Part shown: one piece after another, positions 30,001-36,000 of the stretch | Layout of the letters: each line of letters begins with the position of its first letter | Position numbering within the stretch: position 1 is the first letter of the stretch | Origin: Nitrospiraceae bacterium | GTDB taxonomy: Bacteria > Nitrospirota > Nitrospiria > Nitrospirales > UBA2166 | Reading direction: 5' to 3' | NCBI GenBank assembly: GCA_002726235.1 | Contig: PBSN01000012.1 | Coordinates: forward strand, 1 to 64,000 | DNA length: 64,000 nt | Position numbers: made by a program

Positions 30001-33000
30001 TGTTGCAAAATTGCAAGGTACGGCTGCCCCCATTCTTGTTGCTTCGGCGGGGGCAACGCTTTCTCCTGTTGAACGAGGCAAGGAAGTCTACAACCTCTAT
30101 GAGTGTTACAATTGCCATAAAATTGGAGGTGAAGGGGGAACCAAGAAACGCGGGCCTGAAATGGGCAATCTTGGCAATCTTCTCACTCCAAAGCAAATCA
30201 TTAAGAAGATCCTGAGTACGAAGGCCGATCCGTACTTCTACGCGGAGGGGTTTGAAAAAGAACACAAGAAGGGGTTGATGCCGGAAAAATACCGCGAGCT
30301 GATGACCGAGGAGGAATTGAGTACTCTCGCGGCGTACTTAATGACACTTAAGAACCCGGCCCATAAAACACCTAAGCCTATCTTCCTGAAGGACGAAGTG
30401 GAACATGGATTCACGGTGTACGGTTATGTTCGAGACGTGAATGGTCAGCCGGTGCCGAATATGAAGGTTGCGGCTCGGCCTTCCACAGCCGGCAGCCACG
30501 CTGCCTCAGCCACCACGAATAAGGATGGGTATTATGAGGCCTTCATCCATCTCCACAATACGGATGCAGGTGCGCTCATTCGCTTGTCGGTTCGCAACCA
30601 GAAGAAAGAACTTCGTGCTGACTTTGACCCATTGGATAAAACAACCAAACGTCAGGCGACCGTGGATTTCACACTATAACCCTGCAATAGCATGGTAGAA
30701 AAGATAGTAAAAATCTCACTGCAATTGGAAGCAAAAAATGGTATGTACAGAACTCTTGCCACGTCACCGGTTTGAATACTTGCGGAACGGATGATTCGTC
30801 GAAGGAGTGAAGGAGCGTGGATGGGCAGTGTGTTACCTGCCTCAAATAATTATGCGAAGGAGGCTCTGAAATGAGAATAGGGACTGTGATCGCAGGATTG
30901 GCGGTGCTGGTTATCTTGGCACCAATTTCGTTTGCCGACGAGGGGCACAACGGCCATGGGAAAATGGGTGCTGCTGGGCCTGTGTCGTCTGAAGCTCTTC
31001 GAGATGTCGGAATAGCCATTGCAAATATGGCCATGGGATGTGCGGTGGAGTGTGGGCTTGAAACCTTCGAACCTTTCAGCCCAGCTCAGCCTAACCACTT
31101 GTGGATTAAGGCAAGCGATAACTACGTATGGTTCCTTCATTTCAACAAGCCTCGGAACCATAAGGCGGCAAAGGTGGTATTCGTTGGAGACGGCGTGAAG
31201 GGGCGTTTTTGTTCCGAGGATCAGCCAGATGGTGGAAAGACGGGTTTTGTTCATTTCCACAGAGCGGAGACATCGGCGGGTGCCATGGGTCATGGTGGCA
31301 AGCCTGGGACTGATGGCTGGTGGCTTCGCCATGTTGCGGTCGGAAAGTCTGAGATGAAAATGAAAGGGATGTCGATGCAGTTTGTGCCTGGGCTTGCGAT
31401 GAAATTTCCGCCGACTCCAGCACCGTCATGCTCATAAAGTATGGCTTGAGTACCCCTCAGAGATTCTCACTGAAGATTCTATTCGCAGAAGAAGGAGAAA
31501 CGTCATGAATTCAGGAATTCGTCGCAGTGGCATTGTCTTCGTCATTCTGGTTGCAGCCTGTGGCCTCTTCGCATCAGGGAGTGTTGCCGATGAAGGGCAT
31601 GGTGGGCATTCCAGCATGAGTGGTCCCGTTCCCTCGTGGACGGCGATGCAGGCTGTTGGTGAAACGCTGGCCAAAGTCTATGACTTCAAACCCTTCAGCC
31701 CAGCTCAGCCCAACCACTTGTGGATGAAGGCGTCAGACAACTATGCAACTTTCCTGCACTTTAATAAGCCTTTTTCTAAGAAAGGCGCAAAGCTCGTTTT
31801 TGTCGGTGATGCTGTGAAGGGGCGGTTTTGTTCCGAGGATCAGCCGGATGGCGGAAAGACGGGCTTTGTTCATTTCCACAGAGCAGTGACGTCGGCAGGT
31901 GTCATGGGTCATGGTGGCAAGCCTGGAACTGATGGCTGGTGGCTTCGCCATGTTGCGGTTCGTCATGCTCCAATGAAAAATCCGAAGACAATGAAGAAAA
32001 TGATAGTCAAGCCTGGCTTGGCCATGATGTTCATGCCGACAAAGGCGCCAGCTTGCTCTTCTTCGGGGAAAGGACCTCTGCTTCCATTACCGGAATGACG
32101 CTTTTGCAAGGGGCTACGGTACTGTACCAGCCCGAGTGTACTGAGTTCGAACGCAACGGCCTGTGTTTTTTTGTTGATGGGGGCCGTCCCAATTGGGTAT
32201 CGACCGATTGGCGCGGCGCGGCGGTGCTTCGTCTGATCGATGGGCGCCGAACGTTGAAGGATCTCGTTTGTGATTATGGCGAGCAGGTTCGGATTGATCC
32301 TCTACGGGCGTGGGTTCATGTTCGTAGGTATGTGCAGGCGGCGCTACGCAGCGAGATTGTCTCCCTTGCTCCCATAATTCCAGAGAGGTATTCCGGACGG
32401 GCGTCGTACCTTCGCCCGTCCGCTCTCAATGAGTTTTGGGTGCATACGAACAATTCATGCAATCTTACCTGTTCCCATTGCCTTGTCTCTTCTCATCCTG
32501 GTGCTGATCCGGGACCATCGACCGCGCATCTACTTCGCGTGATGACAGAAGCAAAAGAACTTGGAGCTTCGCGATTTTACTTTACCGGGGGTGAGCCTTT
32601 TCTTCGCAAGGACATCTTTCAACTTGTTGAGCATGTCACCAAAACACTTGATTCCGAGCTCATTGTGCTCACGAATGCGACCTTGTTTCGTGGCACAGTT
32701 TTAAAGCAGCTTGCTGCGCTTGATCGAACACGATTGAAGCTTCAGATTAGTCTCGATGGCGCGACATCTGAGGTGAATGATCCGATTCGTGGAGAAAAGA
32801 CGTTCGAGAATATCACGCGAGGCATTCAAGCCGCTGTTGGAATGGATATTGAGATCTCACTGACTGCCGTATTGACTGGAACAAACCTGACAGATATTCC
32901 CAAGCTTCCGGCCTTGGCAAAGTCTCTTGGTGTCCAATCGATTCACGTGATGTGGATGCATCGTCGCGGAAGAATTTTAGACCATGCCAATCTGCAGTTT

Positions 33001-36000
33001 CCCAGTAATGCGCAAATGCTGGCGTCGATGCGCTTGGTCAAACAGTATGCCGATGAATATGGTGTGACATTAGATAATTTTGAGTCCCTTCATGGGAGGG
33101 TGAATGGACGTCCTGGCGTCAAGGTCGATCTCAGCAATGCCTGCTGGGATAGTCTCTGTCTGAGCTATGATGGGCATGTCTACCCTTCGGCGTCATTTGC
33201 GGGGCATCCTGAGCTTGATCTTGGCGATACCAGAACGGCCTCTTTGCGTTCGTTGTGGTTGGAAAGCGCCGTCGCGAAAGACATTCGAACCGCAACGGTG
33301 GCGAATAAGGCTGGAGTATCGAACGATCCGTTTCGGTTTATTTTGGGTGGAGGAGATATTGAACATAGCTACTTCTTCTCAGACCAGCGGCTTGGTAGGA
33401 GTCATGTGTTGGATGAGGACCCGTACTACGGGCTCTATGTTGAACTGTCCAAGGACATTATGGTCCACCTCGCGGAATCGAAACGGTCTGCTTTCAATGC
33501 AACCTCTGGGTTTGATGGGCCAATCCTGCTTCATGTGATGGGGGAGGGAATGGCCACTTGTGGCAGTCATTTCTGGGATACGCCGGTCACCACGCTGCAT
33601 TCCAATTGTGTGCTGGCGTTTAACGTAGAGACGCCTCATGACATTATTCAGGATTATTACGGGAAGGCAGCAGAGGTTCCTCAACCGGAATTGTGCTGTA
33701 CCATCGATGGCTATTCCGAAGAGGAACTCTCGCATATCCCGCAGGAAGTCCGCGAACGTTCGTATGGGTGCGGGTCGCCCATGAGAAGCGCAGGGATTGA
33801 AGAGAGTGAAACCATCGTGGATTTTGGCTCCGGTGCTGGCATTGATTGTTTTGTTGCCGCACGAAAAACGAGCTGTTCGGGACGTGTAATTGGCGTCGAT
33901 ATGACCGACAATATGCTACAGGTCGCTGAGCGCAATCGATGTCAGGTTTCTAAATTGCTTGGCTATGACAATGTTGAATTTCGCAAAGGATATTTGGAAG
34001 AGATTCCAGTTCAGGATAAAACGGCAGATCTTGTCACCTCCAATTGCGTCATCAACCTCTCTCCTGACAAAAAAGCCGTGTTTTCGGAAATTTGGAGAAT
34101 TCTCAAGAATGGTGGTCGGACGGTGATTTCTGATATCGTCTCCGAGTGCTTGGTGCCTCCCACCATCAAAGTGAACAATCAACTGTGGGGAGAATGTATT
34201 GCGGGTGCGTTGACCGAAGAAGAATTTATCGCCTCACTCGAAGAGGCAGGTTTTTATGGAATAGAGCTACTTCAGAAGGTGGTATATCGTGACGTCGAAG
34301 GACACCGGTTCAATGCTGTAACCGTACGGGGTTATAAATACGAAATGTCCGTTGGGCCTTCCGAGAATGGATTTGTAGCGATTTATCGTGGTCCAATGAA
34401 AATGGTCGTGGATGAGGCCGGGAAGGCCTATCACAGAGGTGAGTCTGTTCCCGTCTCAGCACACACCGCGGCACGGCTTCAAACTTATCCATACACTTCT
34501 CTTTTCACAGTGATTCCCCCCGAACATCAATCGATGGATATTTTGCCGTCGACACAATCCTCAGGAGACTCGCCTTTTATCTCCGGGGAAGTCTCCTGTT
34601 GCTCCTAAACGTCGAACGGCTCTCTATTCCATGTTGACTGTTAATCGCCAGACGATTGCCATTGGACTGGTTATTCTTGTGCTTGGCCTTGGGATCGCTG
34701 CGTTTGTGGTCATGGAGTTTTCCGACACGTTTCATATTCCAACACCCGACGAGATCTCAGTATGGGTCGAGGGATATGGAGGAGCCGGTCCGGTGGCGTA
34801 TCTTCTACTTTACACGTTTGCCCCAATGTTGTTTGTCCCCAGCTTTCCGATTAGCATGGCGGCGGGACTTCTATTTGGACCGTTATGGGGCACGGTGTTC
34901 GCCTCGTTAGGATCAACCCTTGGCGCACTTCTCCCCTTCATCATTGCGCGACACTTTGCCCGGCCGTATGTTGCGCGACATCTTCGTGGTCGGCTGAAAG
35001 ACTTAGATCAGAAAATAGAGGCCCATGGCTGGATATATTTGGCCGTTACACGATTGATTCCACTATTTCCATTCGAACTTCTCAATTATGGTTTTGGCTT
35101 GACCAAGGTCAGGTTTGTGACATACATTGTCGTGTCGTGGCTCGGAATGCTGCCAGCAACGATTGCGTACGTGTTTTTCGGGGCATCAATGTTGGATATC
35201 GTTGAGGGTACATTCCGCATCGAGCTTGTTATTGGAGTGGTTCTCTTCGCTGTCCTAGGTCTTTTGCCAGTCATTTATCGGCGATCTCGTTATTTCAAAC
35301 CCAAGCAGAAACCTGAGAAAACGATTGGCTAAGGTAAGGTGCGTGTTCGGTGGGTGTGGCACGTTAGCTATGGGTAACTGATCATGGCGAAGTCGACGAC
35401 TCTGCAACAAAAACTTGCCAAGGTGTTGGATGCCGCGCCGATGGGTATTGGGCTCATCGCCTTATCCGGACACGAGACCGAGCCTCTAGTGGCTCAGGCC
35501 ACTCAAGGTCTTATGCCGCGAGAGATTCAAGCGTTACTCCGGTCCATTCCGTTTCACACTGAGAGCGTATCTGCAAATTCAAACACGGATGTCGTGGAGA
35601 ACGATAGTTCATTTCGACTTCGCATTGCAGCACCCAATCATAAATGGATGGTCGGCACGCTGTTCCGGAGTGTGCCTCAAATATCTGTTGCGCTTTTGGT
35701 TGGACGTAAGACGGGAGCTGATATTGCCAAGAAAGAAAAGACGCTCCTCAAAGAATTAGCGAAGCAGGTTCTCACGCTTCTCGATGATGCAGCTGTCCAT
35801 ACAGGCGTGGAAAGCTCTCGTGTGCACGCGGATGTGCCGACGGCCCCTGCGGTAGACGGCGTGGGAGAGGCACTGCAAGAATTTCTGCAGTTCGACCAGG
35901 TCTGGTTGTCGGAATATATGCCCGAAACAAATAGTGTGACGGTGACGCACACCTTTGTCCCAGGGCAGTCAGATCTGAAGATCGGACAGCAGTTTCCCAT

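What a model noticed while it worked through the whole genome (the two positions that open the first line are those of the whole stretch)
32053..34608. Radical-SAM domain fused to a four-cysteine ArsM arsenite methyltransferase
One 851-aa protein joins a SPASM-like radical-SAM domain to an ArsM-type arsenite methyltransferase that keeps all arsenic-binding cysteine motifs. The architecture is conserved in hundreds of uncultured species of many phyla and is unnamed. It probably makes organoarsenicals by a route distinct from ArsS/ArsM and ArsL/ArsM; this function is inferred.
Evidence so far: Pfam both domains; NCBIfam arsenite methyltransferase 236 bits; PDB ArsM E 2e-36 with cysteine motifs aligned; invariant CX3CX2C and ArsM cysteines in 15 of 15 homologs; 862 homologs, 120 listed all 799-885 aa; 664 species genomes; neighbours DUF2064 30, PHO4 30, DedA 22 of 75 loci; ArsS only 50.3 bits; no paper found.
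(Added by a program. Inside this text positions count along the whole contig: contig position 1 is position 1 of the stretch shown here. "Call 12" and the like, gene names such as g00115 and contig names such as C1 are that model's own, and its searches are not shown. The text may have been shortened before it was handed on; [...] marks where a part breaks off. The agent that wrote the report below was given it as the finding of a first reader that could run no searches.)

Follow-up and report, generated by a model that had tools for sequence, protein, structure and literature searches.

The report
Radical-SAM enzyme fused to arsenite methyltransferase
One gene joins a peptide-maturase-like radical-SAM enzyme that has lost its usual extra iron-sulfur sites to a complete arsenite methyltransferase, and its gene neighbours and its spread across genomes suggest that it replaces the known arsenosugar enzyme ArsS.

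Summary

It has four parts: a PqqD/RRE-like N-domain, a radical-SAM core with CX3CX2C, a SPASM-fold domain, and a four-cysteine ArsM with a disordered tail ending in CC. The SPASM domain's canonical cysteines are replaced (YPS; invariant GGGD-x-EH).

No assay exists. Four lines of context point to an organoarsenical role.
- Over 65 loci the neighbours recur: DedA, DUF2064/TIGR04282, GT2/TIGR04283, PHO4, a MerA-like flavoprotein and DUF547. True ArsS loci carry the same families.
- In 84 genomes of the class, 75 have ArsS only, 8 the fusion only, none both.
- TIGR04282 is in 194 of 202 genomes with ArsS or this radical-SAM type, and in 10 of 99 with neither.
- Relatives of the radical-SAM half are also fused to DUF2064, to GT2, or to the methyltransferase in reverse order.

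Against a simple replacement: a divergent clade co-occurs with ArsS, and this genome lacks TIGR04282, TIGR04283 and PHO4.

Best reading (about 0.5): a non-homologous stand-in for ArsS joined to ArsM. I rate it a new variant of a known kind. No paper on it was found.

The parts
32095..34608 (+). Fusion gene, 837 aa plus stop: RRE-like domain, radical-SAM core, degenerate SPASM domain, ArsM, CC tail
   Evidence: ORF and translation. The start is supported by P0002 and the homologs and by the ATGA overlap with the upstream ORF. The AF2 model has pLDDT 89.1 and pTM 0.89.
32053..32094 (+).
   Evidence: The close homologs listed (835-838 aa) and the aligned set begin at or near the Met of 32095.
32095..32394 (+). 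N-terminal PqqD/RRE-like winged-helix domain (aa 1-100), with invariant D28, P32 and W34
   Evidence: Three strands then three helices in the model. It aligns with the RRE-bearing maturase CteB from model residue 13. Nine of 120 homologs have a precomputed PF05402 hit. Invariant residues.
32413..33096 (+). Radical-SAM core (about aa 107-334); CX3CX2C at C122/C126/C129 (nt 32458-32481); TGGE at aa 164-167
   Evidence: Pfam PF04055 71 bits. Invariant in 120 of 120 homologs. Fold matches at Z 28-30.
33097..33624 (+). SPASM-fold domain with replaced ligands (about aa 335-510). Hairpin is C350-x9-G360-x4-S365 (Ser where SPASM has Cys). GGGDIEH at aa 418-424 (nt 33346-33366) stands where stand-alone relatives have CxxCx5Cx3C. 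Retained cysteines: C355, C489, C505.
   Evidence: Alignments A1, A2 and A3. Coordinates. Fold matches anSME over model residues 110-510 and CteB over 13-463. No Pfam SPASM hit at E<=0.01.
33637..34533 (+). ArsM arsenite methyltransferase (about aa 515-813). Cysteines: C534/C535 (ELCC), C559 (YGCG), C651 (SNCVINL), C701 (GEC). SAM motif DFGSGAG.
   Evidence: NCBIfam PRK11873 236.9 bits. PDB 8xt7, 5evj and 4fr0 at E about 1e-36, with the three motif cysteines aligned. Foldseek E 7e-23; VIA Z 27.9 over model residues 532-814. Invariant in 120 of 120 homologs.
34534..34605 (+). Disordered C-terminal tail (aa 814-837) ending SCCS. The CC pair (nt 34597-34602) is kept in at least 90% of 120 homologs.
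   Evidence: pLDDT under 50 for residues 814-837. Near-invariant C835/C836. Six of 35 stand-alone ArsM relatives also end in CC.
34631..35332 (+). DedA/VTT-domain membrane protein, 22 bases downstream on the same strand
   Evidence: Pfam VTT_dom 97 bits. A DedA gene lies within about 6 kb in 17 of 65 loci, and directly downstream in three genomes of the genus besides this one. An RNA-library contig bridges the junction at 34289-34797.
31505..32098 (+). Signal-peptide protein with a histidine-rich N-terminal motif (197 aa), of no known family. Its stop overlaps the fusion's ATG. Variable accessory, not core.
   Evidence: No Pfam or NCBIfam family. The family is found near the fusion in only 2 other loci of 65 (L098, L041).
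30871..31437 (+). Tandem paralog of the previous ORF (188 aa, 69% identical)

Best explanation
The gene encodes a two-enzyme protein for organoarsenical synthesis.

**Proposed mechanism.**
- The C-terminal half is a working-type ArsM. It binds As(III) on its conserved cysteines and methylates it with SAM.
- The N-terminal half is a radical-SAM enzyme that descends from RRE plus SPASM peptide maturases. It has given up the canonical auxiliary-cluster cysteines. It keeps a family-specific cysteine triad (C355, C489, C505) and has an invariant Asp-x-Glu-His motif.
- I propose that it cleaves SAM reductively and adds the SAM-derived carbon radical (most simply 5'-deoxyadenosyl, as ArsS does) to the trivalent methylated arsenic handed over by the ArsM half. 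The flexible CC tail may help this hand-over.
- The product then enters the same downstream system that serves ArsS, in genomes that have it: a DUF2064/TIGR04282 nucleotidyl-transferase-like protein, the GT2 TIGR04283, DedA, DUF547 and a MerA-like flavoprotein.

**Shown:** the architecture, the motifs, the fold, the conserved context, and the pattern across genomes.

**Inferred:** the substrate, the radical used, the order of the two steps, and the roles of the triad, the DxEH motif and the tail.
For: 1. **ArsM half is complete.** Four cysteine motifs and the SAM motif are invariant in 120 of 120 homologs. It gives the best NCBIfam and PDB matches and matches CmArsM in fold (Foldseek E 7e-23; VIA Z 27.9).
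2. **Radical-SAM half looks catalytically intact.** CX3CX2C and TGGE are invariant.
3. **Conserved context.** Of 65 full-length loci, DedA is near in 17, DUF2064/GT2 in 16, PHO4 in 14, the FAD disulfide oxidoreductase in 13 and DUF547 in 8. At least one of the five is near in 36 of 65 loci, and in 14 of the 26 loci with 3 kb or more on both sides. The DUF2064 and GT2 neighbours score over the cut-offs of TIGR04282 (190-197 bits, cut-off 134) and TIGR04283 (235-242 bits, cut-off 182), which NCBIfam names arsenosugar-biosynthesis glycosyltransferases.
4. **True ArsS loci carry the same families.** I fetched 12 ArsS stretches; 11 show a called ArsS gene. They hold ArsM in 4 called by Pfam, plus 1 seen that my gene call missed. 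They also hold Pyr_redox_2 in 3, DedA in 2, and DUF2064, DUF547 and PHO4 in 1 each.
5. **Complementary distribution.** In the 84 genomes of the class within the 301-genome phylum sample, 75 have ArsS only, 8 the fusion only, 0 both and 1 neither. All 5 genomes of the genus have the fusion and none has ArsS over its cut-off. In sister families arsM and arsS are adjacent genes.
6. **TIGR04282 follows either enzyme.** It is in 194 of 202 genomes with ArsS or this radical-SAM type, in 10 of 99 with neither, and in 10 of 12 genomes with the fusion type only. This is my reading of the tables.
7. **Independent fusions of the radical-SAM family.** Seen in the 24 relatives I scanned, picked by length from the 150 listed: the methyltransferase in reverse order (P0164, P0183, P0196), DUF2064 (P0257), and methyltransferase plus GT2 (P0155). 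Stand-alone forms sit in an rSAM-DUF2064-GDPD operon. Those genomes hold an ArsM elsewhere that is 49-50% identical to the fusion's half.
8. **Other phyla.** In 4 of 5 genomes where the fusion sits beside these transferases, no ArsS over its cut-off was found.
9. **RNA libraries.** Contigs of three studies, at least 99% identical, lie on parts of the gene.
Against: - No biochemical datum exists for any member.
- All NCBIfam scores are below their cut-offs.
- The nearest solved folds of the N-terminal half are peptide maturases: CteB at Z 29.9, also SuiB, SkfB, TigE and ChlB. The RRE-like domain is strongly conserved, which an ArsS-like small-molecule reaction does not obviously need.
- The divergent clade (33-36% identity) coexists with ArsS in 5 of 6 full-length carriers in the phylum sample. 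One of the 5 genomes from other phyla has both. So the two enzymes need not be equivalent.
- This window's own genome lacks TIGR04282, has no TIGR04283 over its cut-off, and lacks PHO4 (90.65% complete). It does keep a separate ArsM.
- Twenty-nine of 65 loci show none of the five neighbour families; many of those contigs are short.
- Some relatives of the radical-SAM half carry methyltransferases without the ArsM cysteines, or carry TusA domains. The wider family may therefore not be tied to arsenic.
- Related genomes are not independent, so the tallies overstate the evidence.
- RNA-library contigs can hold DNA.
Confidence: 0.5

Rival explanations
1. The protein does work in organoarsenical metabolism, but the radical-SAM half does not form the carbon-arsenic bond. 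It performs another radical step, for example on the sugar, nucleoside or lipid part of an arsenical, as the SPASM/twitch enzymes BlsE, DesII and anSME do on their substrates. Or it adds a different SAM-derived group and so gives a product other than the ArsS product.
For: - The best radical-SAM sequence match in the PDB is the nucleoside-sugar decarboxylase BlsE (7vob, E 6e-9).
- Fold matches include BlsE, DesII, anSME and viperin.
- The divergent clade coexists with ArsS in 5 of 6 full-length carriers, as expected if the two enzymes do different steps.
- GDPD and patatin genes lie beside the stand-alone forms, which hints at glycerophospho-lipid chemistry.
Against: - In 8 of 8 carriers of the class, and in 4 of 5 genomes from other phyla, there is no ArsS to supply a substrate.
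- This genome has the fusion but neither ArsS nor the transferases. The fusion must therefore work from As(III), SAM and common metabolites.
- The loss of the canonical auxiliary-cluster ligands argues against the oxidative chemistry typical of anSME-type enzymes.
Confidence: 0.22
2. The radical-SAM half is still a peptide-modifying maturase. It acts on a separate precursor peptide or on the protein's own cysteine-rich C-terminal tail. The ArsM-like half methylates that peptide or a metalloid bound to it.
For: - The whole RRE, radical-SAM and SPASM architecture superposes on the sactipeptide synthase CteB (Z 29.9, 411 residues aligned, model residues 13-463) and on TigE (model residues 2-476).
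- The top NCBIfam radical-SAM hits include sactipeptide and mycofactocin maturases.
- The RRE-like domain has invariant residues.
- The tail is disordered, peptide-like, and ends in a conserved CC.
Against: - No conserved small ORF of 18-75 aa lies within 1.5 kb in 65 loci. The clusters that appeared lie on the strand opposite the fusion gene or occur in four loci or fewer, which I read as out-of-frame or antisense shadows of conserved neighbouring genes. This is a crude test.
- The canonical SPASM cysteines that such maturases need are replaced.
- AF2 does not dock the tail anywhere.
- The neighbours are transferases, transporters and a flavoprotein. No peptidase or other typical peptide-maturation gene recurs; ABC-transporter genes were seen beside one divergent relative (L203) and beside three ArsS loci.
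- A CC tail also occurs in 6 of 35 stand-alone ArsMs.
Confidence: 0.1
3. The system handles another soft metalloid or chalcogen (selenium, antimony, tellurium), or serves only detoxification or redox support of the methyltransferase, and makes no special natural product.
For: - ArsM-type enzymes are known to accept other metalloids (established knowledge; not tested here).
- Many ArsS genes in the phylum carry an in-frame TGA, consistent with selenocysteine.
- Some relatives of the radical-SAM half are fused to TusA sulfur-carrier domains.
- A MerA-like flavoprotein is a frequent neighbour, in 13 of 65 loci.
Against: - The four ArsM cysteines, PHO4 (a phosphate/arsenate-type carrier) and the ArsS-type accessory set all point to arsenic.
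- The genome already has a plain ArsM for detoxification.
- A radical-SAM domain with an invariant SAM-cleavage motif is not needed for redox support.
Confidence: 0.1

Closest known systems
ArsS (TIGR04167) with ArsM, the arsenosugar pathway of cyanobacteria
   Same: - A radical-SAM enzyme is paired with an ArsM. In the sister families the two are adjacent genes.
- The accessory families are the same: DedA, DUF2064/TIGR04282, TIGR04283, DUF547, Pyr_redox_2 and PHO4.
- TIGR04282 follows either enzyme across genomes.
- ArsS is stated to adenosylate arsenic in a review, of which I read passages (PMC12159101).
   Different: - The radical-SAM halves are not the same family. This one scores 50.9 bits against a cut-off of 300 and has no DUF3641 domain.
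- Here an RRE-like domain and a SPASM fold are present.
- The two activities are on one chain.
- No in-frame TGA.
ArsL with ArsM (arsinothricin biosynthesis)
   Same: A radical-SAM enzyme forms a carbon-arsenic bond from SAM, and an ArsM methylates. This comes from the abstract of bioRxiv 10.1101/2024.02.01.577332 seen in a search listing and from passages of PMC12159101.
   Different: - No ArsL model appears among the 25 best NCBIfam hits shown of 90.
[quoted passage not shown]
- The neighbours here are of the ArsS type.
- Homology to ArsL was not tested directly.
RRE-dependent radical-SAM/SPASM peptide maturases (CteB, SuiB, SkfB, TigE, PqqE)
   Same: The overall fold of residues 13-463 matches, including the N-terminal RRE. 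CteB 5wgg_A gives Z 29.9, rmsd 4.2 and 411 residues aligned. The CX3CX2C motif is shared.
   Different: - The canonical auxiliary-cluster cysteines are replaced: Ser365 in the hairpin, and GGGD-x-EH instead of CxxCx5Cx3C. Stand-alone relatives still have them.
- No precursor peptide gene was found.
- It is fused to ArsM.
Stand-alone ArsM / AS3MT (PRK11873; CmArsM 4fr0, human AS3MT 8xt7)
   Same: The SAM motif, the YGCG, SNCVINL and GEC cysteines, the N-terminal cysteine pair, the C-terminal domain, and in some members a CC tail.
   Different: - It scores below the NCBIfam cut-off (236.9 against 263).
- It is preceded by about 510 residues of radical-SAM enzyme.
- The genome has a separate ordinary ArsM next to a Pst phosphate transporter.

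Membership tests
Arsenite methyltransferase ArsM (PRK11873 / NF008823) | Score over the curated NCBIfam cut-off | tested here: not met
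   236.9 bits against a cut-off of 263. methyl_ArsM scores 210.4 against 500. The match covers profile positions 43-235 of 272 only.
Arsenite methyltransferase ArsM (PRK11873 / NF008823) | Class I SAM-binding motif and the three arsenic-binding cysteines (CmArsM C72, C174, C224) | tested here: met
   YGC559G, SNC651VINL and GEC701 align with the ArsM/AS3MT chains. They are invariant in 120 of 120 homologs, as is the D-x-G-x-G-x-G motif.
Arsenite methyltransferase ArsM (PRK11873 / NF008823) | Fourth, N-terminal cysteine (CmArsM C44) | tested here: inconclusive
   The invariant pair C534/C535 lies about 3 residues from the CmArsM cysteine, in a gapped part of the alignment.
Arsenite methyltransferase ArsM (PRK11873 / NF008823) | Three-domain ArsM fold | tested here: met
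   Foldseek 6cx6_A gives E 7.2e-23 and target TM 0.64. VIA gives Z 27.9 with 281 residues aligned over model residues 532-814.
Arsenite methyltransferase ArsM (PRK11873 / NF008823) | Methylation of As(III) with SAM | not testable with these tools
   Needs an enzyme assay.
Radical SAM superfamily (PF04055) | Pfam score over the gathering cut-off, the CX3CX2C cluster motif and the GGE SAM motif | tested here: met
   71 bits against 29.5. C122, C126, C129 and T164-G-G-E167 are invariant in 120 of 120 homologs.
SPASM/twitch subfamily | Fold of the C-terminal extension | tested here: met
   anSME 4k36_A gives Z 29.0 over model residues 110-510. CteB gives Z 29.9 over 13-463.
SPASM/twitch subfamily | Seven-cysteine motif CX9-15GX4C ... 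CX2CX5CX3C ... C (motif recalled, not from a call) | tested here: not met
   C350 is variable. Ser365 stands at the hairpin cysteine. GGGDIEH stands where stand-alone relatives have CxxCx5Cx3C. There is no PF13186 hit at E<=0.01.
ArsS (TIGR04167) | Score over the cut-off of 300 bits, and the DUF3641 C-terminal domain | tested here: not met
   50.9 bits, over profile positions 4-141 only. No PF12345 hit, whereas true ArsS genes score 163-188 bits on PF12345.
ArsL (arsinothricin radical-SAM enzyme) | Sequence membership | not tested
   No ArsL family appears among the 25 NCBIfam families shown of 90. I ran no direct comparison.
RRE-dependent RiPP maturase | N-terminal PqqD-like recognition element | tested here: met
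   The fold aligns from residue 13 with CteB and from residue 2 with TigE. The model shows the three-strand, three-helix pattern. By sequence the signal is weak: PF05402 is found in 9 of 120 homologs and not in this protein at E<=0.01.
RRE-dependent RiPP maturase | Adjacent precursor peptide gene | tested here: inconclusive
   No conserved ORF of 18-75 aa lies within 1.5 kb in 65 loci. Short, fast-evolving peptides can escape this test.

The most novel reading that the evidence does not exclude
This is a third, independently evolved radical-SAM lineage for carbon-arsenic bond formation. It was built by gutting the iron-sulfur sites of a peptide-maturase SPASM domain. The domain was refitted with a three-cysteine arsenic (or open-cluster) site and an Asp/Glu/His site. 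The former peptide-recognition domain and the CC tail now shuttle arsenic between two SAM-using active sites on one chain. The product is an organoarsenical that differs from the ArsS product, for instance a precursor of an arsenic-bearing lipid head group that DedA helps to place in the membrane of marine, phosphate-poor bacteria.
Probability: 0.2. Interest if true: 0.85.

Novelty: new variant of a known kind. Interest (0 to 1): 0.7.

Why it matters
Per a review of which I read passages (PMC12159101), C-As bonds in bacterial organoarsenicals come from SAM-dependent arsenic methyltransferases and from two radical-SAM reactions: adenosylation of arsenic in arsenosugar synthesis (ArsS) and 3-amino-3-carboxypropyl transfer in arsinothricin synthesis (ArsL).

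If this fusion forms such bonds, four things follow.
- Arsenosugar-type chemistry would extend to many lineages that lack ArsS. Carriers seen here include Nitrospirota, Nitrospinota, Elusimicrobia, Acidobacteriota, Gemmatimonadota, Thermodesulfobacteriota and Planctomycetota.
- The matching DNA occurs in sequencing runs labelled seawater and hydrothermal vent.
- Gene surveys of arsenic cycling that count only arsM and arsS would miss this enzyme.
- It would be a clear case of a peptide-maturase scaffold refitted for a metalloid substrate, with both SAM chemistries on one chain. That would be a convenient single-protein system for mechanistic study.

Tried and rejected
- **Literature.** Six searches found no paper on the fusion. 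The term sets were:
  - radical SAM + ArsM + fusion
  - arsenite methyltransferase + radical SAM + DedA
  - DUF2064 / TIGR04282 / TIGR04283 / TIGR04167
  - SPASM + arsenite methyltransferase
  - radical SAM + arsM + fused
  - organoarsenic + radical SAM + gene cluster + methyltransferase

  Subscription journals are not covered. The 'SPASM' hit in PMC12608789 was the word 'spasms'. The hit in PMC9312934 was a selenoprotein table.
- **Precursor-peptide hunt.** The only clusters lay on the strand opposite the fusion gene or occurred in four loci or fewer, which I read as out-of-frame or antisense shadows of neighbouring genes.
- **Upstream 197-aa protein.** ESM Atlas gave no usable feature hit, and all structure rows were below the bar. 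Pfam and NCBIfam gave nothing.
- **Apparent split forms in G289.** Both pieces end at contig ends, so they are fragments and not split genes.
- **Model coordinates.** They are not available to scripts. I could not measure whether C355, C489 and C505 cluster in space, nor the distance between the two active sites.
- **My simple gene caller.** It missed the ArsM beside ArsS in L188 and found no ArsS in L195. The ArsS-locus tallies are therefore lower bounds.
- **Not run.** Complex prediction, because AF2 leaves the tail undocked and I make no binding claim. The second structure job and the viral or wide fold libraries, which I judged unnecessary.

Full report
**The gene.** A long open frame ends at 34608 on the + strand. 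I prefer ATG 32095, which gives 837 aa, for two reasons:
- The identical database cluster (P0002) and the close homologs listed are 835-838 aa and begin there.
- The ATG overlaps the stop of the upstream ORF as ATGA.

All residue numbers below count from this ATG. They were checked against the DNA.

**Domain content.**
- Pfam finds Radical_SAM (71 bits, cut-off 29.5) and Methyltransf_31 (100.2 bits).
- The best NCBIfam family is arsenite methyltransferase PRK11873 (236.9 bits, cut-off 263). After further ArsM models come radical-SAM families (Rv1681 126.7 bits, then sactipeptide and mycofactocin maturases). Every hit is below its cut-off.
- PDB sequence matches are ArsM/AS3MT at E about 1e-36. 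The YGCG, SNCVINL and GEC cysteines align exactly. The N-terminal cysteine pair lies about 3 residues from CmArsM's cysteine, in a gapped stretch.

**Conservation.**
- A database search gave 2553 hits at E<=1e-3 among 8000 scored candidates. The best 120 are all 799-885 aa with both domains. Their source labels are Nitrospirae, Nitrospinae, Elusimicrobia, Omnitrophica and Deltaproteobacteria.
- Invariant in the alignment of these 120: C122, C126, C129, T164-G-G-E167, G418-G-G-D421, E423, C505, C534, C535, C559, C651, C701 and the SAM motif.
- Kept in at least 90%: C355, C489, S365, H424 and the terminal pair C835/C836.

**Structure.**
- AF2 with this alignment gives pLDDT 89.1 and pTM 0.89. 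Only residues 814-837, and two short loops near 490 and 512, fall under 50.
- Foldseek and VIA-align split the model in two.
- Residues 532-814 match CmArsM, CrArsM and human AS3MT (Foldseek E 7e-23; VIA Z 27.9 for 6cx6_A, rmsd 7.2, 281 residues aligned).
- Residues 13-463 match the sactipeptide synthase CteB, including its N-terminal recognition element (5wgg_A: Z 29.9, rmsd 4.2, 411 aligned).
- anSME (Z 29.0, residues 110-510), ChlB, SuiB, SkfB, TigE, BlsE and PqqE follow.
- So the N-terminal half has the full RRE, radical-SAM and SPASM architecture of peptide maturases.

**A refitted SPASM domain.** I aligned the fusion with stand-alone relatives of about 481 aa from another family of the phylum (31-33% identity; they have a Pfam SPASM hit).
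- The stand-alone forms keep the hairpin cysteine (YPC) and a CxxCx5Cx3C block.
- The fusions have YPS and [N/D]PFRFxxGGGD-x-EHS at those places.
- Three cysteines are shared by both groups: C355, C489 and C505.
- The canonical auxiliary-cluster ligands are therefore gone. What remains is an invariant Asp/Glu/His motif plus a cysteine triad.
- I could not test whether the triad is a metal, cluster or arsenic site, because the model coordinates cannot be read.

**Gene neighbourhood.**
- Two collection scans plus the genus relatives gave 65 loci that cover both halves.
- I clustered the ORFs that lie within about 6 kb of the fusion gene and labelled representatives. The counts are DedA/VTT in 17 loci, DUF2064 and/or GT2 in 16, PHO4 in 14, a MerA-like FAD disulfide oxidoreductase in 13 and DUF547 in 8.
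- At least one of the five is present in 36 of 65 loci, and in 14 of the 26 loci with 3 kb or more on both sides. Twenty-nine loci show none; many of those contigs are short.
- The DUF2064 and GT2 neighbours pass the cut-offs of TIGR04282 and TIGR04283, which NCBIfam calls arsenosugar-biosynthesis glycosyltransferases.
- In this window only DedA follows, 22 bases downstream.

**Comparison with true ArsS.**
- I fetched 12 ArsS stretches from the phylum; 11 show a called ArsS gene.
- Beside ArsS they carry ArsM (4 called, plus 1 known), AhpD-like CMD (2), ABC transporters (3), Pyr_redox_2 (3) and DedA (2). DUF2064, DUF547 and PHO4 occur in 1 each.
- The accessory set is thus shared between ArsS loci and fusion loci.

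**Distribution.** In a 301-genome sample of the phylum:
- ArsS (E<=1e-60) is in 190 genomes.
- The fusion's radical-SAM half (E<=1e-40) is in 18.
- Within the class (84 genomes), 75 have ArsS only, 8 the fusion only, none both, and one neither.
- All five genomes of the genus have the full fusion. None has ArsS over its cut-off.
- The 36 other genomes of the order searched show matches to the ArsM half only. In seven of them that ArsM lies next to ArsS.
- Outside the class the picture is mixed. Three genomes have the stand-alone radical-SAM form and no ArsS. One full-length carrier lacks ArsS. Six genomes with a divergent form (33-36% identity, one of them weak) do have ArsS.
- TIGR04282 (E<=1e-30) is in 204 genomes. 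By my reading of the three tables that is 194 of 202 genomes with ArsS or this radical-SAM type, 10 of 99 with neither, and 10 of 12 with the fusion type only.
- In five genomes of other phyla where the fusion sits beside these transferases, ArsS passes its cut-off in one.
- Related genomes are not independent, so these figures are descriptive.

**Other architectures.**
- A full scan of 1.84 billion representatives with the radical-SAM half found 126 clusters at E<=1e-30.
- By length, 18 are 750-900 aa, 22 are 900 aa or more, 28 are 440-560 aa, and the rest are shorter or in between.
- I scanned 24 of the 150 listed, chosen by length. They include:
  - radical-SAM, methyltransferase and DUF5714 in one chain. 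Hydrosulfovibrio ferrireducens has this form too, by likeness of its C-terminal part to the DUF5714 domain of L203; it was not itself scanned against Pfam.
  - the methyltransferase ahead of the radical-SAM domain
  - DUF2064 fused to the radical-SAM domain
  - radical-SAM, methyltransferase and GT2 in one chain
  - radical-SAM fused to TusA
  - partners that lack the ArsM cysteines
- The stand-alone form sits in an rSAM-DUF2064-GDPD operon. Those genomes hold an ArsM elsewhere that is 49-50% identical to the fusion's half.

**This genome.**
- It has 1.87 Mb and is 90.65% complete.
- I found no TIGR04282 and no PHO4, and neither ArsS nor TIGR04283 over its cut-off.
- It keeps an ordinary 403-aa ArsM next to a Pst-type phosphate transporter.

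**Occurrence and RNA.**
- Runs that hold the stretch are labelled marine, seawater and hydrothermal vent.
- RNA-library contigs of three studies, at least 99% identical, lie on parts of the upstream paralogs and of the fusion.
- One contig runs across the fusion-DedA junction.
- Contigs cannot prove transcription.

**Reading.** The most economical account is a bifunctional organoarsenical synthase in which a non-homologous radical-SAM enzyme takes the place of ArsS and is joined to ArsM (confidence about 0.5). The rivals are:
- a different radical step or a different product within arsenic metabolism (0.22)
- a peptide or self-tail maturase (0.1)
- another metalloid, or mere detoxification support (0.1)

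**Main weaknesses.**
- There is no assay.
- The RRE-like domain is conserved and unexplained.
- The divergent clade coexists with ArsS.
- The transferases are absent from this very genome.

**Literature.**
- Six searches found no paper on the fusion.
- The state of knowledge on ArsS and ArsL comes from passages of PMC12159101 and from abstracts in search listings.

Noticed in passing
window 30871-31437 and 31505-32098 (+): Two tandem paralogs (69% identical) with signal peptides and shared motifs (ADEGHxGH, FSPAQPNHLW, RFCSEDQPDGGKTGFVHFHR). They belong to no Pfam or NCBIfam family. The second overlaps the fusion's start as ATGA. The family turns up near the fusion in only two other loci (L098, L041). 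RNA-library contigs cover them.
   Followed up: partly
L031 9839-13114 (Hydrosulfovibrio ferrireducens CB1MN); L203 5789-8929: Three-domain relatives of about 1040 aa: radical-SAM, ArsM-like methyltransferase, then a cysteine-rich C-terminal domain. In L203 that domain is Pfam DUF5714; in L031 it is inferred from likeness to L203. It follows the CC...CC linker. Among 126 representative clusters of the radical-SAM half, 22 are 900 aa or longer.
   Followed up: partly
P0257, P0155, P0145, P0148, P0164, P0183, P0196: Other fusions of the same radical-SAM family: DUF2064 then rSAM; rSAM, methyltransferase and GT2; rSAM then TusA (one or two TusA domains); and methyltransferase then rSAM in reverse order. 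Several of the partner methyltransferases lack the GEC cysteine or all the ArsM cysteines.
   Followed up: partly
L199 3538-6414 and L201 5737-8622: Stand-alone relatives with a full SPASM cysteine set lie in an operon rSAM-DUF2064-GDPD (glycerophosphodiester phosphodiesterase). In L199 a patatin-like phospholipase is next door. This hints at glycerophospho-lipid chemistry.
   Followed up: no
G000 contig 8, 82261-87168 (L205 6261-11168): The genome's ordinary 403-aa ArsM is followed by PstS-, PstC-, PstA- and PstB-like phosphate ABC transporter genes. In sister families the gene after this ArsM is ArsS.
   Followed up: partly
ArsS matches: Many ArsS genes of the phylum, largely of one family (f14), carry a single in-frame TGA. 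This is consistent with selenocysteine forms of ArsS. Those of the window's own order do not.
   Followed up: no
L188 8725-15986: In one relative the genes run ArsR-like regulator, ArsS, PHO4, then a molybdopterin oxidoreductase with a Rieske_3 domain. The last resembles an arsenite-oxidase large subunit (this likeness is recalled, not tested).
   Followed up: no
window 35384-36991 (+): A 535-aa GAF-domain protein follows DedA and is conserved at that place in the genus (cluster c13: L096, L098, L099 and the window). It may be a regulator of the locus.
   Followed up: no
L026 9977-10951: A stand-alone ArsM of a Thermodesulfobacteriota genome is 52% identical to the fusion's half over residues 516-836. 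It has the same CC...CC tail, and no radical-SAM half lies within 10 kb.
   Followed up: no
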